From assembly GCF_024502345.1 (NCBI RefSeq), contig NZ_JALDNN010000001.1: a DNA stretch of 64,000 nt; one strand, written 5' to 3'. The position numbers and the translations under genes are program-made. Origin of the DNA: Escherichia coli. Lineage in GTDB: Bacteria > Pseudomonadota > Gammaproteobacteria > Enterobacterales > Enterobacteriaceae. The notes below the pieces were generated by a model. The model was not told the DNA's origin, searched no databases, and saw only the letters and a list, made by a program, of their open reading frames with translations. How positions within the stretch are numbered: position 1 is the stretch's first letter; each line of letters begins with the position of its first letter. Shown piece after piece: positions 5,098-44,805 of the stretch.

Positions 5098-5994
5098 ATG
5101 GCAGCAATCGCGTTTATCGGTTTAGGACAAATGGGTTCGCCAATGGCGAGCAATTTATTGCAGCAAGGGCACCAACTTCGCGTCTTTGATGTGAATGCCG
5201 AGGCTGTGCGGCATCTGGTAGACAAAGGCGCGACTCCCGCCGCCAACCCGGCGCAGGCCGCTAAAGATGCCGAATTTATCATTACCATGTTGCCGAATGG
5301 CGATCTGGTGCGCAGCGTGTTGTTCGGTGAGAACGGCGTTTGCGAAAGCTTATCTACCGATGCGCTGGTCATTGATATGTCGACCATCCATCCGCTGCAA
5401 ACCGATAAATTGATTGCCGATATGCAAGCCAAAGGCTTCAGCATGATGGATGTTCCGGTAGGCCGTACTTCTGCAAATGCCATTACCGGTACTCTGTTAC
5501 TGCTGGCTGGCGGCACCGCTGAACAAGTTGAACGTGCCACGCCGATCCTGATGGCGATGGGCAGTGAGTTGATCAACGCTGGCGGTCCGGGCATGGGGAT
5601 CCGCGTTAAGCTCATCAACAACTATATGAGCATCGCACTCAATGCGCTTTCGGCAGAAGCTGCCGTTTTGTGCGAAGCCCTGAATCTTCCCTTCGATGTT
5701 GCCGTCAAAGTGATGAGCGGTACCGCCGCCGGTAAAGGCCACTTCACCACTTCCTGGCCAAACAAAGTCCTCAGCGGAGATCTTTCTCCCGCCTTCATGA
5801 TCGATCTTGCCCATAAGGATCTTGGCATCGCCCTTGATGTCGCCAACCAGCTGCATGTGCCAATGCCGCTGGGGGCCGCCTCACGGGAGGTTTATAGCCA
5901 GGCGCGCGCAGCGGGTCGCGGTCGCCAGGACTGGTCCGCCATTCTGGAACAGGTCCGTGTCAGTGCCGGGATGACTGCCAAAGTAAAAATGTAA
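5098..5994 (+). CDS. yihU: 3-sulfolactaldehyde reductase (3-hydroxyisobutyrate dehydrogenase family)
   Basis: 298-aa ORF with N-terminal Rossmann motif [10 protein letters not shown]; AGGAGAAGG SD upstream; matches YihU. Confidence 0.95.
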
Positions 5995-6017
5995 CGACTG
6001 GATAAAGGAATAAATGA

Positions 6018-6896
6018 ATGAATAAGTACACCATCAACGACATTACGCGCGCATCGGGCGGTTTTGCCATGCTGGCGGTCGATCAGCGCGAAGCCATGCG
6101 CATGATGTTTGCCGCGGCTGGGGCACCCGCTCCGGTAGCCGATAGCGTTTTAACTGATTTCAAAGTTAACGCGGCGAAGACCCTCTCGCCTTATGCCTCG
6201 GCGATTCTGGTAGATCAACAATTCTGTTACCGCCAGGTGGTTGAGCAAAACGCGATTGCCAAAAGTTGCGCCATGATTGTCGCCGCCGATGAGTTCATTC
6301 CTGGCAACGGTATTCCGGTAGATAGCGTGGTCATTGACCGCAAAATCAATCCGCTACAGATCAAACAAGACGGTGGCAAAGCCTTAAAACTGCTGGTGCT
6401 GTGGCGTAGTGATGAAGATGCGCAGCAACGCCTGGATATGGTGAAAGAGTTTAACGAACTGTGCCACTCACACGGCCTGGTAAGCATTATTGAGCCAGTC
6501 GTCCGCCCACCACGTCGTGGCGATAAATTCGATCGCGAACAAGCGATCATCGATGCCGCCAAAGAGCTGGGCGACAGTGGCGCTGACCTCTACAAAGTTG
6601 AAATGCCGCTTTACGGTAAAGGTCCGCAACAAGAGCTTCTCAGTGCTTCACAACGTCTGAATAACCATATCAATATGCCGTGGGTGATCCTCTCTTCCGG
6701 TGTCGACGAAAAACTGTTCCCGCGTGCCGTACGCGTGGCAATGACAGCGGGTGCATCGGGCTTCCTGGCTGGTCGTGCCGTCTGGGCATCGGTCGTCGGT
6801 TTACCAGACAACGAGTTGATGCTGCGTGACGTTTGTGCACCGAAATTACAACAACTGGGCGATATCGTCGACGAAATGATGGCTAAACGCCGTTAA
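6018..6896 (+). CDS. yihT: 6-deoxy-6-sulfofructose-1-phosphate aldolase (class I aldolase, LacD/DeoC-like)
   Basis: 292-aa ORF 24 bp downstream of yihU; matches YihT. Confidence 0.95.
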
Positions 6897-6911
6897 GATG
6901 GGGATACAAAA

Positions 6912-8153
6912 ATGAAATGGTTTAACACTTTAAGTCACAACCGTTGGCTGGAACAGGAAACCGATCGCATCTTTGATTTTGGTAAAAATTCCGTAGTACC
7001 GACCGGATTTGGCTGGTTAGGCAATAAAGGGCAAATCAAAGAAGAGATGGGCACCCATCTGTGGATCACAGCTCGTATGTTGCACGTTTATTCCGTTGCT
7101 GCGGCGATGGGTCGACCTGGCGCTTACTCGTTGGTTGATCACGGTATTAAAGCCATGAACGGCGCACTGCGCGATAAAAAATATGGCGGCTGGTATGCCT
7201 GTGTGAATGACGAGGGCGTGGTGGATGCCTCCAAACAGGGCTATCAACATTTCTTTGCTCTGCTGGGTGCTGCCAGCGCCGTCACTACCGGTCATCCGGA
7301 AGCGCGCAAGCTGCTCGATTACACCATTGAAATTATCGAGAAATACTTCTGGAGCGAAGAAGAGCAGATGTGCCTGGAGTCCTGGGACGAAGCCTTCAGC
7401 AAAACCGAAGAGTACCGCGGCGGCAATGCCAATATGCACGCAGTGGAAGCTTTCTTAATTGTTTATGACGTAACGCATGACAAAAAATGGCTGGATCGCG
7501 CGATTCGCGTGGCTTCCGTGATTATCCACGACGTCGCAAGAAATAATCATTATCGCGTTAACGAACACTTCGATACCCAGTGGAATCCGCTGCCGGATTA
7601 CAACAAAGATAACCCGGCGCACCGCTTCCGCGCGTTCGGAGGTACACCAGGCCACTGGATCGAATGGGGCCGTTTAATGCTGCACATCCACGCGGCCCTG
7701 GAAGCCCGTTGCGAACAACCGCCAGCATGGTTGCTAGAAGATGCCAAAGGTCTGTTTAACGCCACCGTGCGTGATGCCTGGGCACCCGATGGTGCGGACG
7801 GGATTGTTTATACCGTTGACTGGGAAGGAAAACCGGTGGTCCGCGAACGTGTGCGTTGGCCTATCGTCGAAGCGATAGGTACGGCCTACGCGCTCTACAC
7901 CGTCACCGGCGATCGCCAGTATGAAACCTGGTATCAGACATGGTGGGACTACTGCATTAAGTACCTGATGGACTATGAAAATGGTTCCTGGTGGCAGGAG
8001 CTGGATGCGGACAATAAAGTCACCACGAAAGTCTGGGACGGCAAACAGGATATTTATCACCTGCTGCATTGCCTGGTGATCCCGCGTATCCCGTTAGCGC
8101 CAGGCCTGGCTCCGGCAGTTGCGGCGGGTCTGCTGGATATTAACGCGAAATAA
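6912..8153 (+). CDS. yihS: Sulfoquinovose isomerase (N-acylglucosamine 2-epimerase fold)
   Basis: 413-aa ORF; matches YihS. Confidence 0.95.
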
Positions 8154-8333
8154 CTGACTAAAAAAAAACGACATATCAGGCTGCACGCCGGGTATGTCGT
8201 TATTCAATAAAGGTACCTCGTATGCAAATCACCAACATGCATTGCAGTGGACAGACCGTTTCACTTGCCGCGGGGGATTATCACGCGACCATTGTGACCG
8301 TCGGTGCAGGTCTGGCTGAATTAACCTTTCAGG

Positions 8334-9554
8334 TGTAGATTCAATTGGTCAACGCAACAGTTATGTGAAAACATGGGGTTGCGGAGGTTTTTTGAATGAG
8401 ACGAACATTTACAGCAGAGGAAAAAGCCTCTGTTTTTGAACTATGGAAGAACGGAACAGGCTTCAGTGAAATAGCGAATATCCTGGGTTCAAAACCCGGA
8501 ACGATCTTCACTATGTTAAGGGATACTGGCGGCATAAAACCCCATGAGCGTAAGCGGGCTGTAGCTCACCTGACACTGTCTGAGCGCGAGGAGATACGAG
8601 CTGGTTTGTCAGCCAAAATGAGCATTCGTGCGATAGCTACTGCGCTGAATCGCAGTCCTTCGACGATCTCACGTGAAGTTCAGCGTAATCGGGGCAGACG
8701 CTATTACAAAGCTGTTGATGCTAATAACCGAGCCAACAGAATGGCGAAAAGGCCAAAACCGTGCTTACTGGATCAAAATTTACCATTGCGAAAGCTTGTT
8801 CTGGAAAAGCTGGAGATGAAATGGTCTCCAGAGCAAATATCAGGATGGTTAAGGCGAACAAAACCACGTCAAAAAACGCTGCGAATATCACCTGAGACAA
8901 TTTATAAAACGCTGTACTTTCGTAGCCGTGAAGCGCTACACCACCTGAATATACAGCATCTGCGACGGTCGCATAGCCTTCGCCATGGCAGGCGTCATAC
9001 CCGCAAAGGCGAAAGAGGTACGATTAACATAGTGAACGGAACACCAATTCACGAACGTTCCCGAAATATCGATAACAGACGCTCTCTGGGGCATTGGGAG
9101 GGCGATTTAGTCTCAGGTACAAAAAACTCTCATATAGCCACACTTGTAGACCGAAAATCACGTTATACGATCATCCTTAGACTCAGGGGCAAAGATTCTG
9201 TCTCAGTAAATCAGGCTCTTACCGACAAATTCCTGAGTTTACCGTCAGAACTCAGAAAATCACTGACATGGGACAGAGGAATGGAACTGGCCAGACATCT
9301 AGAATTTACTGTCAGCACCGGCGTTAAAGTTTACTTCTGCGATCCTCAGAGTCCTTGGCAGCGGGGAACAAATGAGAACACAAATGGGCTAATTCGGCAG
9401 TACTTTCCTAAAAAGACATGTCTTGCCCAATATACTCAACATGAACTAGATCTGGTTGCTGCTCAGCTAAACAACAGACCGAGAAAGACACTGAAGTTCA
9501 AAACACCGAAAGAGATAATTGAAAGGGGTGTTGCATTGACAGATTGAATCTACA
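8334..9554 (+). mobile_element. Insertion sequence IS30, complete 1221-bp copy, flanked by 2-bp target-site duplication GG
   Basis: Left end TGTAGATTCAATTGGTCAACGCAACAGTTATGTG..., right end ...TTGACAGATTGAATCTACA (terminal inverted repeats); length 1221 bp; GG at 8332-8333 and 9555-9556; encodes a 383-aa transposase. Confidence 0.95.
8396..9547 (+). CDS. insI: IS30 transposase (DDE family)
   Basis: 383-aa ORF MRRTFTAEEKASVFELWKNGTGF... with N-terminal HTH and C-terminal DDE domain; recognised as the IS30 transposase. Confidence 0.95.
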   Translation: MRRTFTAEEKASVFELWKNGTGFSEIANILGSKPGTIFTMLRDTGGIKPHERKRAVAHLTLSEREEIRAGLSAKMSIRAIATALNRSPSTISREVQRNRGRRYYKAVDANNRANRMAKRPKPCLLDQNLPLRKLVLEKLEMKWSPEQISGWLRRTKPRQKTLRISPETIYKTLYFRSREALHHLNIQHLRRSHSLRHGRRHTRKGERGTINIVNGTPIHERSRNIDNRRSLGHWEGDLVSGTKNSHIATLVDRKSRYTIILRLRGKDSVSVNQALTDKFLSLPSELRKSLTWDRGMELARHLEFTVSTGVKVYFCDPQSPWQRGTNENTNGLIRQYFPKKTCLAQYTQHELDLVAAQLNNRPRKTLKFKTPKEIIERGVALTD

Positions 9555-10407
9555 GGGCTGTCATTTAGTTATTCCACATAAACCCGAAGAGATGCCGCTG
9601 GCACATCTGGGCAAAGTCCTTATTCCGTGGCCGAACCGGATCGCCAACGGCTGTTATCGCTATCAGGGGCAGGAATATCAGTTACCCATTAATGAACATG
9701 GTTCAAAAGCCGCTATTCATGGGCTGCTCGCCTGGCGTGACTGGCAAATCAGCGAATTAACCGCCACCAGCGTTACCCTGACAGCTTTTCTGCCACCCAG
9801 TTACGGCTATCCGTTTATGCTGGCTTCGCAGGTTGTTTATTCGCTCAATGCACGCACGGGTCTTTCCGTTGAGATCGCAAGTCAGAATATTGGTACTGTG
9901 ACCGCACCCTATGGTGTGGGTATTCATCCTTATTTAACCTGCAACTTAACATCTGTTGATGAATATCTGTTCCAGCTTCCGGCAAACCAGGTTTATGCCG
10001 TCGATGAGCACGCTAATCCGACAACGCTTCACCACGTTGATGAGCTGGATTTAAATTTCACGCAGGCGAAAAAAATAGCCGCGACAAAAATCGACCACAC
10101 CTTTAAAACCGCTAATGATCTGTGGGAAATAACCATTACCCATCCACAACAGGCGCTTTCGGTAAGCCTTTGTTCCGATCAACCCTGGGTGCAGATTTAT
10201 AGCGGCGAAAAATTACAGCGTCAGGGACTGGCAGTTGAACCTATGAGTTGCCCACCTAACGCCTTTAATTCAGGTCTCGACTTATTATTACTGGAACCAG
10301 GGAAAACGCACCGCCTGTTTTTTAATATTTACGGGCAGCACAATTAATTTTATTAAGAAAAGAACGAGATCATTGTTTAGGGTTGTATTTACACAACAGG
10401 AAATATC

Positions 10408-11283
10408 ATGGACTTTTTTACGTTATTTTCACCGGATGGGGTCATGCTGGAAACAAACGTGGTATGTATCGTTATCGCGTTAATGTTTCTTTATACCTTT
10501 GTGGGGATATGCGCGGGATTTGGCGGTGGTTTAACCACCATGCCGCTCGTCACGTTAATGCTCCCCGTAAAAATGGCAACTCCGCTCTCGGTGATTGTCG
10601 GCACCGCGACCGCCTTGTACGCCACCTGGCTGTCACGTAAAGAAACGGATTGGCGATCGGCAATGGTACTGATTATTTTCTCGTTTCTGGGAATACCCGT
10701 CGGTTTATATGCGCTGTCATATTTACCCGACCATTTTATGAAAGTGGGCTTAGGCGGATTCCTTATCCTGTACTCCTTTTACAGTATGTTTATTCCACGC
10801 CTGCCGATTTATGACCGCAACTGGATCGCCGCACCTATCGGCGCTGTGGCAGGAGCGTTAGGGGCAGCGTTTTCAACCAACGGACCGCCGATGGTTATCT
10901 ACGGTATGCTGCGTAACTTAGGCCCGGCGGCATTTCGTGGCACTCTGAACGCTTTCTTCACCGCAAACAACATCGCGGTGATCGGCGGGCTGGCGACCAG
11001 CGGAATTTTGACTGTTTCTATCTTTAAACTGGTGCTGTTTTGTATTCCCACCATGATCCTCGGTTCACTGGTTGGACAATATGTGCATAAACGCATTTCA
11101 GTCAAAGTGTTCCGTGTGATGGTCTTTTTGTTGCTGATTGCCTCCGGTTCTATGTTGATAAAAGGCGCGCTGGGAATTCCCGCTGCTGCCGCGCTTCTGC
11201 CTCCTTTTACCTTGTTAGTTATACTGCAACTGGCATTTGGTAAAAAAGTGGCGGCAATCCGCCGGGCTGAAGAAAGTAAATAA
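10408..11283 (+). CDS. TauE/SafE (TSUP, DUF81) family anion permease; putative sulfite or organosulfonate exporter
   Basis: 291-aa polytopic membrane protein with the family hallmark glycine motif (GICAGFGGGLTTMPL) and a second repeat (GAVAGALGAAFSTNGPP); AGGAAA SD 6 nt before the ATG; host-like GC and codon usage. Sits between yihR and yihQ. Confidence 0.8.
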   Translation: MDFFTLFSPDGVMLETNVVCIVIALMFLYTFVGICAGFGGGLTTMPLVTLMLPVKMATPLSVIVGTATALYATWLSRKETDWRSAMVLIIFSFLGIPVGLYALSYLPDHFMKVGLGGFLILYSFYSMFIPRLPIYDRNWIAAPIGAVAGALGAAFSTNGPPMVIYGMLRNLGPAAFRGTLNAFFTANNIAVIGGLATSGILTVSIFKLVLFCIPTMILGSLVGQYVHKRISVKVFRVMVFLLLIASGSMLIKGALGIPAAAALLPPFTLLVILQLAFGKKVAAIRRAEESK

Positions 11284-11391
11284 TCACTTATGCGGGTTTT
11301 AATTTATACCAGCACCACATTCTTTAATTAATGAAACCTGTAACAACAGGATGGCATGAAATATTAGCTTTATACTCTATGGAGATTATTT

Positions 11392-13424
11392 ATGGATACG
11401 CCACGCCCACAATTACCAGATTTTCAGTTTCATCAGAATAACGACAGTTTTACCCTACATTTTCAACAGCGTCTTATTTTAACCCATAGCAAAGATAATC
11501 CTTGTTTATGGATTGGTTCAGGTATTGCGGATATCGATATGTTCCGCGGCAATTTCAGCATTAAAGATAAACTACAGGAGAAAATTGCGCTTACCGACGC
11601 CATCGTCAGCCAGTCGCCGGATGGTTGGTTAATCCATTTCAGCCGTGGTTCTGACATTAGCGCCACGCTGAATATCTCTGCCGACGATCAGGGCCGTTTA
11701 TTGCTGGAACTACAAAACGACAACCTTAACCACAACCGTATCTGGCTGCGCCTTGCCGCTCAACCAGAGGACCATATCTACGGCTGCGGCGAACAGTTTT
11801 CCTACTTCGATCTGCGTGGCAAACCGTTCCCGCTATGGACCAGTGAACAAGGCGTTGGTCGCAATAAACAAACCTATGTCACCTGGCAGGCCGACTGCAA
11901 AGAAAATGCGGGCGGCGACTATTACTGGACTTTCTTCCCACAGCCTACGTTTGTCAGCACGCAGAAGTATTACTGCCATGTTGATAACAGTTGCTATATG
12001 AACTTCGACTTTAGTGCCCCGGAATACCATGAACTGGCGCTGTGGGAAGACAAAGCAACGCTGCGTTTTGAATGTGCTGACACATACATCTCCCTGCTGG
12101 AAAAATTAACCGCCCTGCTGGGACGCCAGCCAGAACTGCCCGACTGGATTTATGACGGAGTAACGCTCGGCATTCAGGGCGGGACGGAAGTGTGCCAGAA
12201 GAAACTGGACACCATGCGTAACGCGGGCGTGAAGGTCAACGGCATCTGGGCGCAGGACTGGTCCGGTATTCGTATGACCTCTTTTGGCAAACGCGTGATG
12301 TGGAACTGGAAGTGGAACAGCGAAAACTACCCGCAACTGGATTCGCGTATCAAGCAGTGGAACAAAGAGGGCGTGCAGTTCCTTGCCTATATCAACCCGT
12401 ATGTTGCCAGTGATAAAGATCTCTGCGAAGAGGCGGCAAAGCGCGGTTATCTGGCAAAAGATGTCGCCGGTGGCGACTATCTGGTGGAGTTTGGCGAGTT
12501 CTACGGCGGCGTTGTCGATCTCACCAATCCGGAAGCCTACGCCTGGTTCAAGGAAGTTATCAAAAAGAACATGATTGAACTCGGCTGCGGCGGCTGGATG
12601 GCTGACTTCGGCGAGTATCTGCCCACCGACACGTACCTGCATAACGGCATCAGCGCGGAAATTATGCATAACGCCTGGCCCGCGCTGTGGGCGAAATGTA
12701 ACTACGAAGCCTTGAAGAAACGGGCAAGCTCGGCGAGATCCTCTTCTTTATGCGCGCCGGTTCTACCGGTAGCCAGAAATACTCCACCATGATGTGGGCG
12801 GGTGACCAGAACGTGGACTGGAGTCTGGACGATGGCCTGGCGTCGGTTGTCCCGGCGGCGCTATCTCTGGCAATGACCGGACATGGCCTGCATCACAGCG
12901 ACATTGGCGGTTATACCACCCTGTTTGAGATGAAGCGCAGCAAAGAGCTGCTGCGCTGGTGCGATTTCAGCGCCTTCACGCCGATGATGCGCACCCACGA
13001 AGGTAACCGTCCTGGCGACAACTGGCAGTTTGACGGCGACGCGGAAACCATCGCCCATTTCGCCCGTATGACCACCGTCTTCACCACCCTGAAACCTTAC
13101 CTGAAAGAGGCCGTCGCGCTGAATGCGAAGTCCGGCCTGCCGGTTATGCGCCCGCTGTTCCTGCATTACGAAGACGACGCGCAGACCTATTCCCTGAAAT
13201 ATCAGTACCTGTTAGGTCGCGACATTCTGATTGCTCCGGTACACGAAGAAGGTCGCAGCGACTGGACGCTCTATCTGCCAGAGGATAACTGGGTCCACGC
13301 CTGGACCGGAGAAACCTTCCACGGTGGAGAAATAACTGTTGAAGCGCCCATCGGCAAGCCGCCGGTCTTTTATCGCGCCGACAGCGAATGGGCTGCACTG
13401 TTCGCCTCGTTAAAAAACATCTAA
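11392..13424 (+). pseudogene. yihQ: Sulfoquinovosidase (GH31) gene with a -1 frameshift
   Basis: Two overlapping ORFs (11392-12792 and 12750-13424) in different frames both match YihQ. Frame 1 reads ...CNYEAL through 12712-12714; frame 2 reads EETGKLGEILFFMRAGS from 12714. Continuity needs GCC TTG GAA GAA where the sequence has GCC TTG AAG AAA, i.e. one G missing at 12714/12715. Confidence 0.8.
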
Positions 13425-13469: not shown

Positions 13470-14855
13470 ATGAGTCACATCACAACGGAAGATCCGGCAA
13501 CTTTGCGCCTGCCCTTTAAAGAGAAACTCTCTTACGGTATCGGCGATCTGGCCTCTAACATCCTGCTGGATATTGGTACGCTTTATCTTTTGAAGTTTTA
13601 TACCGACGTTCTGGGGCTACCTGGCACCTATGGCGGCATTATCTTTTTGATCTCGAAATTCTTTACCGCCTTTACCGATATGGGAACCGGCATCATGTTG
13701 GATTCCCGGCGTAAGATTGGCCCGAAAGGTAAGTTCCGCCCTTTCATTTTGTACGCGTCATTCCCGGTCACCTTATTGGCAATCGCTAACTTTATCGGCA
13801 CACCGTTCGATGTCACTGGTAAAACGGTGATGGCCACTATTCTATTTATGCTCTACGGGCTGTTTTTCAGCATGATGAACTGCTCCTACGGCGCAATGGT
13901 TCCCGCCATTACCAAAAACCCCAACGAACGCGCATCGCTGGCGGCATGGCGTCAGGGTGGTGCTACATTGGGCCTGCTGCTGTGTACGGTGGGATTCGTG
14001 CCGGTGATGAACCTTATCGAAGGTAATCCGCAACTGAGCTACGTTTTCGCCGCCACGCTATTTTCACTGTTCGGCCTGCTGTTTATGTGGATCTGCTACT
14101 CGGGCGTGAAAGAGCGTTATGTCGAAACCCAACCTGCTAATCAGGCGCAAAAGCCAGGCTTGCTGCAATCTTTCCGCGCAATTGCCGGTAACCGCCCACT
14201 GTTCATTCTGTGTATTGCCAACCTCTGCACCTTAGGGGCGTTTAACGTCAAGCTCGCCATTCAGGTCTATTACACCCAGTACGTGCTTAACGATCCCATC
14301 CTGTTGTCGTATATGGGATTTTTTAGCATGGGCTGTATTTTCATCGGCGTGTTCCTGATGCCTGGCGCAGTTAGACGTTTTGGTAAGAAGAAGGTCTATA
14401 TCGGCGGCCTGCTGATTTGGGTGCTTGGCGATCTGCTCAACTATTTCTTCGGCGGCGGCTCGGTCAGTTTTGTGGCGTTCTCCTGCCTGGCATTCTTTGG
14501 CTCGGCGTTTGTTAACAGCCTGAACTGGGCGCTGGTTTCCGACACCGTCGAGTACGGCGAGTGGCGCACCGGTGTCCGTTCTGAAGGGACGGTCTACACC
14601 GGCTTCACCTTCTTTCGCAAAGTGTCTCAGGCGCTGGCTGGTTTCTTCCCCGGCTGGATGCTGACGCAAATCGGCTATGTGCCGAACGTGGCGCAGGCTG
14701 ACCACACCATTGAAGGGTTGCGCCAGCTGATCTTCATCTACCCAAGCGCACTGGCGGTAGTCACCATTGTGGCGATGGGTTGCTTCTACAGTCTGAACGA
14801 GAAGATGTACGTCCGCATTGTTGAAGAAATAGAAGCCCGTAAACGCACGGCGTAA
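13470..14855 (+). CDS. yihP: GPH-family (glycoside-pentoside-hexuronide:cation symporter) transporter
   Basis: Start set at ATG 13470 (MSHITTEDPATLRL...) preceded by GGAG; 461 aa; paralogous to the adjacent yihO. Confidence 0.9.
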   Translation: MSHITTEDPATLRLPFKEKLSYGIGDLASNILLDIGTLYLLKFYTDVLGLPGTYGGIIFLISKFFTAFTDMGTGIMLDSRRKIGPKGKFRPFILYASFPVTLLAIANFIGTPFDVTGKTVMATILFMLYGLFFSMMNCSYGAMVPAITKNPNERASLAAWRQGGATLGLLLCTVGFVPVMNLIEGNPQLSYVFAATLFSLFGLLFMWICYSGVKERYVETQPANQAQKPGLLQSFRAIAGNRPLFILCIANLCTLGAFNVKLAIQVYYTQYVLNDPILLSYMGFFSMGCIFIGVFLMPGAVRRFGKKKVYIGGLLIWVLGDLLNYFFGGGSVSFVAFSCLAFFGSAFVNSLNWALVSDTVEYGEWRTGVRSEGTVYTGFTFFRKVSQALAGFFPGWMLTQIGYVPNVAQADHTIEGLRQLIFIYPSALAVVTIVAMGCFYSLNEKMYVRIVEEIEARKRTA

Positions 14856-14894: not shown

Positions 14895-16298
14895 ATGTCT
14901 GACCATAATCCACTGACATTAAAACTGAATCTGCGGGAAAAAATCGCCTATGGTATGGGCGACGTTGGTTCGAATTTAATGCTTAGCATCGGTACTCTGT
15001 ATCTCCTCAAATTTTATACCGATGAATTAGGGATGCCAGCTTACTATGGCGGGATTATCTTTCTGGTGGCGAAGTTTTTTACCGCGTTTACCGATATGCT
15101 CACCGGATTTTTACTCGACTCGCGGAAAAATATTGGGCCTAAAGGCAAATTTCGTCCCTTTATTTTATATGCAGCGGTTCCGGCGGCGTTAATTGCAACG
15201 CTCCAGTTTATCGCCACCACTTTTAGTTTGCCGGTTAAAACGACGATTGCCACGGCGCTGTTTATGATGTTTGGGCTTTCATACAGTCTGATGAACTGCT
15301 CGTATGGCGCGATGATCCCGGCAATTACCAAAAACCCGAATGAGCGCGCGCAGCTCGCTGCTTACCGCCAGGGTGGTGCAACCATAGGGCTATTGATTTG
15401 TACCGTGGCGTTTATTCCGTTGCAGTCGCTTTTTTCTGACTCAACCGTCGGTTATGCCTGTGCGGCACTTATGTTCTCCATTGGCGGCTTTATTTTTATG
15501 ATGCTGTGCTACAGAGGCGTCAAAGAGCATTATGTGGACACAGCGCCAACCGGACATAAAGCCAGTATTCTCAAATCATTTTGCGCGATATTTCGGAATC
15601 CGCCATTGCTGGTTTTATGCATTGCTAACTTGTGTACCCTGGCGGCATTTAATATCAAACTGGCGATTCAGGTCTATTACACCCAGTATGTGCTGCATGA
15701 TATTAATTTATTGTCGTGGATGGGATTCTTCAGTATGGGATGCATCCTCATCGGCGTATTACTGGTGCCATTAACTGTAAAATGTTTTGGTAAAAAACAG
15801 GTTTATTTAGCTGGCATGGTGCTATGGGCGGTTGGTGATATCCTGAATTATTTCTGGGGAAGTAACTCTTTCACTTTCGTCATGTTCTCTTGTGTCGCCT
15901 TTTTTGGCACGGCCTTTGTAAACAGCCTGAACTGGGCGCTGGTACCAGATACCGTAGATTACGGTGAATGGAAAACCGGTATTCGTGCCGAAGGTTCTGT
16001 TTATACCGGTTATACCTTCTTTCGTAAAATTTCTGCCGCACTTGCTGGCTTCTTGCCAGGCATTATGCTGACGCAAATCGGTTATGTTCCCAACATCGCG
16101 CAAAGTGATGCGACATTACAGGGTTTGCGTCAGCTCATTTTTATCTGGCCTTGTGCACTGGCAATTATTGCTGCATTGACGATGGGATTCTTTTACACAC
16201 TCAATGAAAAACGGTTTGCGTTGATTATTGAGGAAATCAACCAACGCAAAAATAAAGAAATTGAGACAGAAGAAAAAACGGCTTCCGTAACGTTATAA
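14895..16298 (+). CDS. yihO: GPH-family transporter (sulfoquinovose / SQ-glycerol importer)
   Basis: Start set at ATG 14895 (MSDHNPLTLKL...) with AAGGAG 5 nt upstream; 467 aa. Confidence 0.9.
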   Translation: MSDHNPLTLKLNLREKIAYGMGDVGSNLMLSIGTLYLLKFYTDELGMPAYYGGIIFLVAKFFTAFTDMLTGFLLDSRKNIGPKGKFRPFILYAAVPAALIATLQFIATTFSLPVKTTIATALFMMFGLSYSLMNCSYGAMIPAITKNPNERAQLAAYRQGGATIGLLICTVAFIPLQSLFSDSTVGYACAALMFSIGGFIFMMLCYRGVKEHYVDTAPTGHKASILKSFCAIFRNPPLLVLCIANLCTLAAFNIKLAIQVYYTQYVLHDINLLSWMGFFSMGCILIGVLLVPLTVKCFGKKQVYLAGMVLWAVGDILNYFWGSNSFTFVMFSCVAFFGTAFVNSLNWALVPDTVDYGEWKTGIRAEGSVYTGYTFFRKISAALAGFLPGIMLTQIGYVPNIAQSDATLQGLRQLIFIWPCALAIIAALTMGFFYTLNEKRFALIIEEINQRKNKEIETEEKTASVTL

Positions 16299-16364: not shown

Positions 16365-17057
16365 ATGAAAAATATTAATGCAATAATTTTATTATCTTCT
16401 CTGACCTCTGCCTCAGTATTCGCTGGCGCATACGTCGAAAACAGGGAGGCATATAATCTCGCCTCCGATCAGGGCGAGGTTATGCTACGTGTGGGTTATA
16501 ACTTCGATATGGGCGCGGGTATTATGTTAACCAATACCTACACCTTTCAGCGAGAAGATGAACTAAAACATGGATATAACGAAATCGAAGGTTGGTATCC
16601 GTTATTTAAACCAACCGATAAATTAACCATCCAGCCCGGTGGCTTAATTAATGATAAGAGTATCGGTTCGGGTGGTGCAGTGTATCTGGACGTCAACTAT
16701 AAATTTGTACCATGGTTTAATCTGACAGTACGAAATCGCTATAACCATAATAACTATAGTTCAACAGATTTGAGCGGGGAACTGGATAATAATGACACCT
16801 ATGAAATTGGTACCTACTGGAATTTTAAAATCACCGATAAGTTCTCCTATACATTTGAGCCACATTATTTTATACGCGTAAATGACTTTAATAGCAGCAA
16901 TGGAAAAGATCATCACTGGGAAATCACTAACACCTTCCGTTATCGCATTAATGAACACTGGCTGCCTTATTTCGAATTACGCTGGTTAGATCGTAATGTC
17001 GAACCGTACCACCGCGAGCAAAACCAGATTCGTATCGGGACGAAGTATTTCTTCTGA
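16365..17057 (+). CDS. ompL: Outer-membrane porin OmpL
   Basis: Start set at ATG 16365 (MKNINAIILLSSLTSASVFA, signal peptide); 230 aa; ends in an aromatic C-terminal residue (F) typical of beta-barrel proteins. Confidence 0.85.
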   Translation: MKNINAIILLSSLTSASVFAGAYVENREAYNLASDQGEVMLRVGYNFDMGAGIMLTNTYTFQREDELKHGYNEIEGWYPLFKPTDKLTIQPGGLINDKSIGSGGAVYLDVNYKFVPWFNLTVRNRYNHNNYSSTDLSGELDNNDTYEIGTYWNFKITDKFSYTFEPHYFIRVNDFNSSNGKDHHWEITNTFRYRINEHWLPYFELRWLDRNVEPYHREQNQIRIGTKYFF

Positions 17058-29159: not shown

Positions 29160-29227
29160 AATGGTTCGTCTTTTAGCCGTTTTATTCAGTATAGATTTGC
29201 GGCGGAATCTAACAGAAAGCAAGCAAA

Positions 29228-29470
29228 GAAAAAAGGCGACAGATTACTCTGTCGCCTTTTTTCCTGACTCATAACCCTTAACGGGTCTTACAATCCTTGC
29301 AGGCCGCCAACACACCCTGTTTTTCCATTAGCCGGAACAATCCGTGTTGATTCCATTTCCGTTTAATTACGTCTCCGGACGTTTGTCTTCCTGACAATCC
29401 TCTGTCTTCGCCTCCTGGCGCTCCTGACCCTCATCCTGAGTCATTGTTCCTGTTAGCGTCCTCGCTCTAT
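29228..29470 (-). ncRNA. csrC: CsrC sRNA (CsrA-sequestering)
   Basis: Minus-strand transcript beginning ATAGAGCGAGGACGCTAACAGGAACAATGACTCAGGATGAGGGTCAGGAGCGCCAGGAGG... with more than a dozen GGA triplets, ending in hairpin GGCGACAGAGTAATCTGTCGCC plus U-run. Lies in the yihI-engB intergenic region; sequence recognised as CsrC. Confidence 0.85.
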
Positions 29471-30498: not shown

Positions 30499-30607
30499 TA
30501 AAAAACGCCCCAGTCATTACTGACTGGGGCGGCTAAAATATTCAGCCAAATCCGATTACGTGAAGTAAAAGGTCTGAAAGATAGAACATCTTACCTCTGT
30601 ACCCTAC
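30499..30607 (-). ncRNA. spf: Spot 42 sRNA
   Basis: Minus-strand 109-nt sequence GTAGGGTACAGAGGTAAGATGTTCTATCTTTCAGACCTTTTACTTCACGTAATCGGATTTGGCTGAATATTTTAGCCGCCCCAGTCAGTAATGACTGGGGCGTTTTTTA, ending in a terminator hairpin plus U-run; recognised as Spot 42. Confidence 0.92.
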
Positions 30608-30754
30608 GCGACTAACTTTACTCTTTTTTGTTCAGTTCAGAAAGCACTTTTTGTAATTTTTTTTCAGTTGTTGCATAGGAATTTCTAATAGCCATCACAA
30701 AACGTGACAGCTTATGTTGCTTACTTACGAAAAAAGGGCATGTTCAGGCGAATC

Positions 30755-39702: not shown

Positions 39703-39822
39703 ATGCCTGGCAGTTCCCTACTCTCGCATGGGGAGACCCCACACTACCATCGGCGCTACGGCGTTTCACTTCTGAGTTCGGCATGGGGTCAGGTGGGACC
39801 ACCGCGCTACGGCCGCCAGGCA
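39703..39822 (-). rRNA. rrfA: 5S ribosomal RNA
   Basis: 120-nt reverse complement matches the E. coli 5S sequence (TGCCTGGCGGCCGTAGCGCGGTGGTCCCACCTGACC...CTGCCAGGCAT). Confidence 0.95.
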
Positions 39823-39914
39823 AATTCTGTTTTATCAGACCGCTTCTGCGTTCTGATTTAATCTGTATCAGGCTGAAAATCTTCTCTCATCCGCCAAAAC
39901 ATCTTCGGCGTTGT

Positions 39915-42817
<2,903 letters not shown>

Positions 42818-43000
42818 TCACAACCCGAAGATGTTTCTTGCGATCCATCATCGTGTTGCGAAAATTTGAGAGACTCACGAACAACTTTCGTTGTTCAGTG
42901 TTTCAATTTTCAGCTTGATCCAGATTTTTAAAGAGCAAAACTTCGCAGTGAACCTTTTCAGGTACACTCTGAAGTATTTTTTATTTAATCACTACAGAGA

Positions 43001-43076
43001 TGGTGGAGCTATGCGGGATCGAACCGCAGACCTCCTGCGTGCAAAGCAGGCGCTCTCCCAGCTGAGCTATAGCCCC
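43001..43076 (-). tRNA. alaT: tRNA-Ala (UGC), 16S-23S spacer tRNA
   Basis: Reverse complement GGGGCTATAGCTCAGCTGGGAGAGCGCCTGCTTTGCACGCAGGAGGTCTGCGGTTCGATCCCGCATAGCTCCACCA. Confidence 0.95.
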
Positions 43077-43118
43077 ATAACATGTAGTTAAAACCTCTTC
43101 AAATTTGCCGTGCAAATT

Positions 43119-43195
<77 letters not shown>

Positions 43196-43263
43196 GTAGA
43201 GGTTTTACTGCTCATTTTCATCAGACAATCTGTGTGAGCACTGCAAAGAACGCTTCTTTAAGG

Positions 43264-44805
<1,542 letters not shown>

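What the first reader, a model, noticed from the sequence alone, without database searches (positions are those of the whole stretch)
8332..9556. IS30 insertion with 2-bp target duplication disrupts the sulfoquinovose mutarotase gene yihR
A complete 1221-bp IS30 (terminal inverted repeats TGTAGATTCAATTGGTCAACGC...) sits inside yihR, flanked by a GG duplication (8332-8333 and 9555-9556). Removing the element and one GG copy restores a continuous reading frame, so this is a clean transposition event. It truncates YihR after 37 residues and is expected to be polar on the downstream TauE-like gene, yihQ, yihP, yihO and ompL if these are transcribed from the yihU promoter.
Basis: seen in the sequence. 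Interest (0 to 1): 0.65.

Follow-up and report, generated by a model that had tools for sequence, protein, structure and literature searches.

The report
IS30 insertion knocks out yihR
A standard copy of the E. coli jumping gene IS30 has landed inside yihR, a sulfoquinovose-pathway gene, in a rare human-gut E. coli lineage whose neighbouring gene yihQ was already broken; this is real but ordinary gene decay.

Summary
Window 8334-9554 is a complete 1221-bp IS30. It is identical to annotated IS30 copies in E. coli genomes, has 26-nt imperfect terminal repeats and an intact 383-aa transposase, and is flanked by GG/GG. Removing the element and one GG gives a yihR with no differences from the uninterrupted gene of E. 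coli strain 203740. The empty site is intact in 3994 of 5426 complete E. coli genomes, and none of them carries the insertion.

It is not an assembly artefact. At least 17 contigs from at least 14 other samples (drafts, gut metagenomes, Logan assemblies) cross the left or right junction.

YihR is cut after 37 native residues plus one Val. The stop codon TAG lies inside the IS30 end.

The same lesions occur in contigs with an intact yihR, so they very likely predate the IS30 insertion.

Polarity on tauE, yihP, yihO and ompL is plausible. The stop codon is followed by a terminator-like hairpin, and I found no outward or downstream promoter. It remains untested, and K-12 data suggest partly independent transcription.

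This is textbook insertional inactivation, of low interest.

The parts
8222..8333 (+). yihR 5' fragment: 37 native codons (8222-8332) plus the first base of codon 38
   Evidence: Translation. Identical to yihR of strain 203740.
8332..8333 (.). Left copy of the 2-bp target duplication (GG)
   Evidence: The empty site reads TTTCAGGGCTGTC.
8334..9554 (+). Complete IS30, 1221 bp, with its transposase in the same orientation as yihR
   Evidence: 100% identical to annotated IS30 copies.
8334..8359 (+). IS30 left inverted repeat (26 nt). It contains the TAG at 8336-8338 that ends the YihR' reading frame.
8339..8397 (+). RNA hairpin at the IS30 left end, followed by or overlapping a U6 run. It pairs with the transposase ribosome-binding site (GGAGG, 8383-8387) and start codon (AUG, 8396). 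Terminator-like for transcripts entering from yihR.
   Evidence: -19.3 kcal/mol, z = -3.9, 0 of 200 shuffles fold as well. Function is inferred.
8396..9547 (+). IS30 transposase ORF, 383 aa, intact
   Evidence: NF033563, 276 bits against a cutoff of 80.
9529..9554 (+). IS30 right inverted repeat. It carries an outward-facing -35-like TTGACA at 9536-9541.
   Evidence: With a 17-nt spacer the -10 would be TGTCAT (9559-9564), which lacks the conserved A at position 2. The promoter scan did not report it.
9555..9556 (.). Right copy of the 2-bp target duplication (GG)
9557..10347 (+). yihR 3' fragment (rest of codon 38 to the stop codon)
   Evidence: NF011719 aldose-1-epimerase, 538 bits, profile positions 39-299 of 300. 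No differences from strain 203740.
10408..11283 (+). TauE/SafE-family membrane protein gene, 291 aa, intact. It is the first gene downstream of the insertion.
   Evidence: Pfam PF01925, E = 4.7e-35. Annotated as such in strain 203740. Absent from K-12.
11392..13424 (+). yihQ (sulfoquinovosidase) pseudogene. It has CC at 12710-12711 where intact alleles have CCC, so the frame is lost after residue 441. It has (CTG)2 at 12948-12953 where intact alleles have (CTG)3.
   Evidence: NF007746 is split into profile positions 3-446 and 455-680. None of 3599 complete E. coli genomes shares the frameshift.
13470..14855 (+). yihP (MFS transporter), intact
14895..16298 (+). yihO (MFS transporter, putative sulfoquinovose importer), intact
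16365..17057 (+). ompL (porin), intact
5098..8153 (+). yihU (5098-5994), yihT (6018-6896) and yihS (6912-8153), upstream of the insertion and intact
8167..8201 (+). Stable hairpin in the yihS-yihR spacer, preceded by A9 and followed by UUAUU
   Evidence: -19.9 kcal/mol, z = -4.0. flags it as terminator-like on the minus strand.

Best explanation
**What happened.** A canonical, apparently still functional IS30 transposed into codon 38 of yihR, the putative sulfoquinovose mutarotase gene, in an E. coli lineage with the TauE-containing long form of the yih cassette. Insertion used IS30's normal mechanism: a circular or dimer intermediate attacks the target with a 2-bp stagger, and repair leaves a 2-bp direct repeat, here GG.

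**Effect on yihR.** This is a null allele. Translation stops after 37 native residues plus one Val, at a TAG inside the IS30 left end.

**Timing.** The insertion is fixed in a rare lineage seen repeatedly in human gut metagenomes and draft genomes. It came after an older 1-bp frameshift in yihQ. It is best read as a further step in the decay of the part of the cassette downstream of yihS.

**Effect on downstream genes (inferred, not shown).** Transcripts entering from upstream probably largely terminate within IS30. The early stop leaves the RNA free of ribosomes. A hairpin with a U-run follows immediately and hides the transposase start site. No usable outward promoter forms at the right end. 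SQ-inducible expression of tauE, yihP, yihO and ompL is then probably reduced, unless those genes have their own promoters.
For: **Shown here:**
- Identity, length, inverted repeats and transposase of IS30.
- The 2-bp duplication and perfect restoration to the uninterrupted allele.
- All four other IS30 insertions whose flanks I read also have 2-bp repeats: GC, GG, GT and GT.
- The 2-bp stagger mechanism is described in PMC9333248.
- Both junctions appear in many independent assemblies. The 38-aa truncated product is indexed in 85 blocks of the public collection.
- The yihQ frameshift and CTG deletion occur together with an intact yihR in L015 and L016. The frameshift alone occurs in L011. This puts the yihQ lesion before the IS30 insertion.

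**Supporting the polarity inference:**
- The stop codon is at 8336-8338.
- The left-end hairpin folds at -19.3 kcal/mol, z = -3.9.
- The scan finds no sigma-70-like site on the + strand between 8334 and 12076.
- CsqR has a single strong target, the yihU/yihV spacer, yet all long-cassette genes are induced on SQ (PMC8249747, PMC12608037).
Against: **Against polarity:**
- It has not been measured.
- In K-12, RNA polymerase binds the yihS/yihR spacer. A candidate promoter is predicted for yihQ, and the authors assume that yihR and yihQ are transcribed independently (PMC5816610).
- IS30's right end carries a perfect -35 hexamer that is known to form fusion promoters in other contexts (PMC9330008).
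- The consensus scan is crude and would miss activator-dependent promoters.

**Against the order of events:** it rests partly on metagenome contigs, which can be chimeric. The shared yihQ allele also shows recombination patches.
Confidence: 0.9

Rival explanations
1. Assembly artefact: IS30 reads from elsewhere in the genome were collapsed into yihR, and the real chromosome has an intact yihR.
For: IS30 is a multi-copy repeat. E. coli genomes that carry it have a median of 2 and up to 23 matching places. None of 5426 complete genomes has this insertion.
Against: - The IS ends are exact and there is a perfect 2-bp target duplication, which a mis-join would not create.
- At least 17 contigs from independent projects (NCBI drafts, ENA metagenomes, Logan) cross the same left or right junction.
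- Both junctions are recovered from the same samples: ERZ27263756, GCA_050029375.1 and ERR1600703.
Confidence: 0.02
2. The insertion is real but essentially non-polar. tauE, yihP, yihO and ompL are still expressed, either from their own promoters or from a fusion promoter that uses the outward -35 in the IS30 right end. Only the mutarotase is lost.
For: - K-12 data point to promoters in the yihS/yihR spacer and upstream of yihQ, and to independent transcription of yihR and yihQ (PMC5816610).
- IS30's right end has TTGACA at 9536-9541, and IS30 fusion promoters are documented (PMC9330008, PMC9783932).
- About 57 nt upstream of yihQ, including a palindrome, are conserved with K-12.
Against: - The best -10 at the correct spacing is TGTCAT, which lacks the conserved A at position 2. 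The scan did not report it.
- No + strand promoter-like site lies between 8334 and 12076.
- The AT-rich K-12 yihR-yihQ spacer, where a yihQ promoter could lie, is replaced here by tauE.
- CsqR has only one strong target, upstream of yihU (PMC8249747), so SQ induction of the distal genes most simply needs read-through.
Confidence: 0.25
3. Selected silencing rather than neutral decay. Once YihQ was broken, importing sulfoquinovosyl glycerol that cannot be hydrolysed became wasteful or harmful. It is also an inducer of the cassette. Polar IS insertions upstream of the transporter genes were then favoured.
For: - Relatives with the same yihQ frameshift carry other mobile-element sequence within the same 2 kb: IS1 joined near 10360 in L011, and IS66-family sequence joined at 10103 in L009 and L010.
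- SQGro and SQ derepress CsqR (PMC8006165).
Against: - Three events is a small number, and IS hits in dispensable DNA are expected under neutrality.
- The L009/L010 junction falls inside a tnpC gene and may be a scaffold artefact.
- Another strain, 1506, also has an IS1A in this region; I did not check its yihQ.
- No fitness or toxicity data exist.
Confidence: 0.1

Closest known systems
IS30 of E. coli K-12 (IS30 family prototype)
   Same: - 1221 bp with 26-nt imperfect inverted repeats and a single 383-aa transposase ORF.
- A 2-bp target duplication.
- 0-1 nucleotide differences from annotated copies, including one in K-12 AB1157.
   Different: Nothing in the element itself. Only the insertion site is particular: yihR codon 38, which is absent from all 5426 complete RefSeq E. 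coli genomes.
Other chromosomal IS30 insertions in E. coli: next to or overlapping nfsA in many strains, and gene-disrupting in glpF (K-12 AB1157) and yecU
   Same: The same element and the same 2-bp repeats (GC, GG, GT). The flanks are loosely similar: a G-rich centre with a T-run about 10 nt to the right.
   Different: The gene hit is different. The nfsA-adjacent insertion recurs in many complete genomes, whereas yihR::IS30 is confined to one rare lineage. I did not score similarity to the published IS30 hot-spot consensus.
Structural variants of the E. coli yih (sulfo-EMP) cassette: long ompL-yihOPQRSTUVW and short yihTUVW (PMC12608037)
   Same: The same locus and gene order as the long form. 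It fits that paper's picture of the cassette as an evolutionarily labile module.
   Different: - This cassette has an extra TauE/SafE gene between yihR and yihQ, which the paper does not mention.
- It is decaying by point lesions and an IS insertion, not by the block replacement that produces the short form.

Membership tests
IS30 (the element itself; IS30 family) | Length of about 1221 bp bounded by 26-bp imperfect terminal inverted repeats | tested here: met
   8334-9554 is 1221 bp. The repeats are 26 nt and 88% complementary.
IS30 (the element itself; IS30 family) | A single long ORF encoding an IS30-family transposase | tested here: met
   383 aa. NF033563, 276 bits against a cutoff of 80. 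DNA-identical copies are annotated WP_001254932.1, an IS30 family transposase. I did not inspect the catalytic residues individually.
IS30 (the element itself; IS30 family) | A 2-bp direct target duplication on insertion | tested here: met
   GG/GG. The empty-site allele has a single copy. The mechanism is described in PMC9333248.
IS30 (the element itself; IS30 family) | Near-identity to the reference IS30 sequence | tested here: met
   100% over 1221 nt to many annotated copies. One mismatch to a K-12 AB1157 copy.
IS30 (the element itself; IS30 family) | Insertion into a hot-spot-like, loosely palindromic target | tested here: inconclusive
   The right flank resembles other IS30 sites: BLAST extended 13-19 nt into flanks of other insertions (flanks). 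By eye the site is not clearly palindromic, and I did not have the published consensus to score it.
YihR / aldose-1-epimerase (putative sulfoquinovose mutarotase) | Full-length match to the equivalog model, at the yih cassette position between yihS and yihQ | tested here: met
   The 3' fragment matches NF011719 positions 39-299 of 300 at 538 bits. The restored gene has no differences from the annotated yihR of strain 203740 and differs from K-12 YihR at 11 of 300 aligned residues. Mutarotase activity of E. coli YihR itself was not tested here; K-12 annotation calls it 'putative'.
YihQ sulfoquinovosidase (GH31) | An uninterrupted polypeptide of about 678 aa carrying the sulfonate pocket Arg301/Trp304/Tyr508 together with the catalytic aspartates | tested here: not met
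   The frame is lost after residue 441. R301, W304 and D405 fall in the N-terminal fragment; D472 and Y508 fall in the C-terminal fragment. The pocket residues are from PMC8006165. D405 and D472 as the catalytic pair is from my own recall of the literature.
TauE/SafE sulfite or sulfonate exporter family | Pfam PF01925 domain across a polytopic membrane protein | tested here: met
   PF01925, E = 4.7e-35, residues 23-248. The substrate is unknown. No NCBIfam model matched.

The most novel reading that the evidence does not exclude
The yih cassette of this lineage group is being dismantled in a directed way. After sulfoquinovosidase (yihQ) was lost, independent mobile-element insertions just upstream of the transporter genes were selected because they switch off import of sulfoquinovosyl glycerol that can no longer be metabolised and that also induces the cassette. 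These are IS30 in yihR here, IS1 in the yihR-tauE spacer, and IS66-like sequence in yihR in relatives. That would be a natural example of compensatory, polarity-based silencing.
Probability: 0.08. Interest if true: 0.45.

Novelty: already known. Interest (0 to 1): 0.15.

Why it matters
The scientific weight is small. The case documents a null allele of the putative sulfoquinovose mutarotase gene, and probably a disabled distal half of the sulfo-EMP cassette, in a rare human-gut E. coli lineage. It adds an example of how this accessory pathway is lost.

It has practical uses:
- The two junction sequences and the yihQ CC frameshift are specific markers for tracking this lineage in metagenomes.
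- Anyone predicting sulfoquinovose use from gene presence should score this strain as defective for sulfoquinovose glycosides (yihQ and yihR both broken), and possibly for import.
- The cassette form with an extra TauE gene, found in about a quarter of complete genomes, deserves mention in descriptions of yih cassette diversity.

Tried and rejected
- **Searches for the same insertion.** I looked in 5426 complete RefSeq E. coli genomes and in the one-genome-per-species collection. Neither has it. I did not identify the source strain. The best identity of window 17000-41000 to any complete genome is only 99.2%.
- **My first reading of the truncated frame was wrong.** I had a 35-codon IS-encoded tail. 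Translation showed the frame ends at a TAG 3 nt into IS30.
- **Fusion promoter at the right end.** I considered TTGACA + 17 nt + TGTCAT and judged it poor. The scan did not report it.
- **Shigella as the source.** I considered this because no complete 'E. coli' shares either lesion. I set it aside. I found only one IS in the parts of the 64 kb I examined: the rest aligns colinearly with E. coli genomes or shows ordinary intact-length ORFs. The rarity of the lineage is enough to explain its absence. This was not formally tested.
- **A different lesion, not the same event.** L014 has a 466-aa YihQ fragment but keeps CCC at this site and is only 94% identical, so it carries a different lesion.
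- **Papers I could not read.** The original IS30 papers (PMC557656, PMC554561) and Shimada et al. 2019 are not held. Statements about IS30's internal terminators remain unverified recall and are not used as evidence.
- **The 49-nt head of L009/L010.** It matches the interior of an IS66-family tnpC gene, not an IS end. That junction may be a scaffold artefact and is only weak evidence.
Full report
**1. The observation**

The sequence at 8334-9554 begins TGTAGATTCAATTGGTCAACGC and ends with its imperfect inverse, giving exactly 1221 bp.
- The repeat finder reports 26-nt arms at 8334-8359 and 9529-9554, 88% complementary. The end sequence occurs nowhere else in the window, and none is expected by chance.
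- The 1221 bp are 100% identical to IS30 copies annotated in many complete E. coli genomes. 3824 of 5426 genomes carry IS30 sequence.
- Of five copies I fetched and compared base by base, three had 0 mismatches and two had 1, one of them in K-12 AB1157.
- The internal ORF at 8396-9547 is 383 aa and matches NCBIfam's IS30 family transposase model at 276 bits, against a cutoff of 80.

The element is a complete and apparently intact IS30.

**2. The insertion event**

The flanks read ...TTTCAGG | IS30 | GGGCTGTC.... I removed the IS and one GG and aligned the result to E. coli strain 203740, where the cassette is annotated as csqR, yihV, yihU, yihT, yihS, yihR, a TauE/SafE gene, yihQ, yihP, yihO and ompL.
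- The alignment is colinear over 15.9 kb at 99.3% identity. It has no differences in yihR or the TauE gene and none around the junction.
- A 200-nt reconstruction of the empty site is present in one piece in 3994 of 5426 complete genomes, some at 100% identity.

The ancestral site therefore had GGG, and the insertion added exactly two G's. This is the 2-bp duplication expected of IS30, whose transposase attacks the target strands 2 bp apart (PMC9333248). All four other IS30 insertions whose flanks I read also have 2-bp repeats: GC, GG, GT and GT.

**3. The effect on yihR**

- The ATG is at 8222, the start NCBI's annotation uses for the 300-aa protein.
- Codons 1-37 are native. Codon 38 becomes GTG (Val), and the next codon is the TAG within IS30's TGTAGA terminus at 8336-8338. 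My first hand reading of this frame was wrong and was corrected by translation.
- The restored protein differs from K-12 YihR at 11 of 300 aligned residues.
- K-12's annotated start, eight codons further upstream, lies in a yihS-yihR spacer that is quite different in this strain.
- The remaining 262 codons still match the aldose-1-epimerase model over positions 39-299 of 300. They lack a start codon and the N-terminal strands.

**4. Real event or artefact?**

No complete RefSeq E. coli has the insertion, and neither does the one-genome-per-species collection. The junctions are nevertheless common in short-read assemblies.
- **Left junction.** An exact 33-nt left-junction string hits a 29.7-kb metagenome contig that is 100% identical to window 6850-8388 and stops 55 nt into IS30. 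The 38-aa truncated product can only arise with this junction. It is indexed in 85 blocks of the public collection. Nine contigs I read run from yihU through the junction and end 30-532 nt inside IS30, at 99.3-100% identity.
- **Right junction.** Contigs found through the frameshifted YihQ product begin 29-139 nt inside the IS30 right end and continue into yihR; one more begins only 2 nt inside it. One NCBI draft is 100% identical over 9.3 kb.
- **Both junctions together.** Three samples yield both junctions: ERZ27263756, GCA_050029375.1 and ERR1600703.
- **Contig length.** The right-hand contigs are all about 30.3 kb long. That is the distance from IS30 to the ribosomal RNA operon at 39705-44805. 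Contigs breaking at both repeats is what one expects from short reads.

The insertion is therefore real and fixed in a lineage found in human gut metagenomes, including a Crohn's disease cohort project.

**5.

The alignment to strain 203740 has only two indels, and both are in yihQ.
- CCC has become CC at 12710-12711.
- (CTG)3 has become (CTG)2 at 12948-12953.

The first lesion shifts the frame after residue 441. The gene now reads as a 466-aa fragment and a 224-aa fragment, matching positions 3-446 and 455-680 of the 683-position model. The sulfonate-pocket residues Arg301 and Trp304 are thereby separated from Tyr508 (PMC8006165). None of the 3599 complete E. coli genomes that match this stretch shares the frameshift.

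Both lesions also occur on contigs with an intact yihR and no TauE gene (L015, L016). In those contigs the core of yihQ is identical and the differences cluster in distal patches, which looks like recombination. The frameshift alone occurs in L011. The simplest order is frameshift, then CTG deletion, then IS30. The caveat is that metagenome contigs can be chimeric.

In L011 an IS1 end is joined near window position 10360. In L009 and L010, IS66-family tnpC sequence is joined at 10103. That second junction falls inside a gene rather than at an IS end, so it may not be trustworthy. One complete genome, strain 1506, also has an IS1A in this region.

**6. Polarity**

This part is inference.

In favour:
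- Ribosomes stop 3 nt into IS30.
- The next 60 nt fold into a stable hairpin (-19.3 kcal/mol, z = -3.9) that ends in a U-run and pairs with the transposase ribosome-binding site and start codon. Read-through RNA would then be largely untranslated for about 1.2 kb, the classic condition for Rho-dependent termination (general knowledge).
- The consensus scan finds no + strand promoter-like site between 8334 and 12076 and no fusion promoter at the right end. IS30's outward TTGACA at 9536-9541 faces TGTCAT at 17 nt.
- In K-12, CsqR has one strong binding target, the yihU/yihV spacer, yet ompL, yihO, yihP, yihQ and yihR are all strongly induced on sulfoquinovose (PMC8249747, PMC12608037). Read-through explains that most simply.

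Against:
- The literature names yihUTS as an operon. It reports RNA polymerase binding in the yihS/yihR spacer, predicts a yihQ promoter, and assumes independent transcription of yihR and yihQ (PMC5816610, PMC8006165).
- Those K-12 results do not transfer cleanly. This strain's yihS-yihR spacer is different and holds a stable hairpin. The AT-rich K-12 spacer upstream of yihQ is replaced by the TauE gene, and only the last ~57 nt are conserved.
- IS30 fusion promoters are documented elsewhere (PMC9330008).

**7. Expected physiology**

- YihS prefers beta-sulfoquinovose.
- YihQ releases the alpha anomer.
- Spontaneous mutarotation is slow, with a half-time of about 5 h.

The mutarotase therefore matters mainly for sugar released from glycosides (PMC8006165). 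With yihQ already broken, losing yihR adds little. The remaining question is whether the transporters downstream are still expressed. The core enzymes YihS, YihT, YihU and YihV and the regulator CsqR are intact by ORF length and carry only a few substitutions.

**8. Verdict**

This is a correct and carefully described finding of an ordinary kind: insertional inactivation by an exact copy of a textbook element, in an accessory cluster that was already decaying. The added value from this stage is:
- proof that the insertion is real and lineage-wide;
- the exact stop codon;
- the pre-existing yihQ pseudogene;
- a more cautious view of polarity.

Interest is low.

Noticed in passing
window 11392-13424 (lesions at 12710-12711 and 12948-12953): yihQ (sulfoquinovosidase) is a pseudogene, with a 1-bp deletion in a CCC run and an in-frame CTG deletion. 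No complete RefSeq E. coli shares the frameshift. It recurs in draft and metagenome contigs, including ones with an intact yihR.
   Followed up: yes
window 10408-11283: A TauE/SafE-family gene lies between yihR and yihQ. K-12 lacks it. About 1279 of 5426 complete E. coli genomes have this cassette form. The 2025 paper on long and short yih cassettes does not mention it. Its substrate is unknown; it could be a sulfonate or sulfite exporter for the pathway.
   Followed up: partly
window 13470-14855 (yihP): 67 of the 114 differences from strain 203740 across 15.9 kb fall in yihP. This looks like a recombination patch within an otherwise near-identical cassette.
   Followed up: no
window 8167-8201: A stable hairpin (-19.9 kcal/mol, z = -4.0) in the yihS-yihR spacer, with A9 before it and UUAUU after it. 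It is terminator-like, mainly on the minus strand. The K-12 spacer at this position is a different, longer sequence.
   Followed up: partly
L011:1-109, joined near window 10360; L009 and L010:1-49, joined at window 10103: Relatives carrying the same yihQ frameshift have other mobile-element sequence in the same 2 kb. L011 has an IS1 end in the yihR-tauE spacer. L009 and L010 have IS66-family tnpC sequence inside yihR, and that junction may be a scaffold artefact.
   Followed up: partly
window 8339-8397: The IS30 left end folds into a hairpin that pairs the inverted-repeat bases with the transposase ribosome-binding site and start codon, and ends in a U-run. This would shield the transposase from activation by outside transcription. 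I could not check whether it has been described for IS30.
   Followed up: partly
window 17000-41000: The best identity to any of 5426 complete RefSeq E. coli genomes is only 99.2% over 24 kb, although gene order is fully colinear. The source lineage has no close complete relative in that set.
   Followed up: no
window ~11337-11350: The palindrome CCTGTAACAACAGG, about 45 nt upstream of the yihQ start, is conserved with K-12 although the rest of the upstream spacer is not. It may be a regulatory site or a small hairpin.
   Followed up: no
window 39705-44805 (minus strand); 29217-29470; 30499-30617: A ribosomal RNA operon (5S, 23S, two tRNAs, 16S), CsrC and Spot 42. These are ordinary landmarks. 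The rRNA operon explains why short-read contigs of this lineage end about 30.3 kb downstream of IS30.
   Followed up: yes
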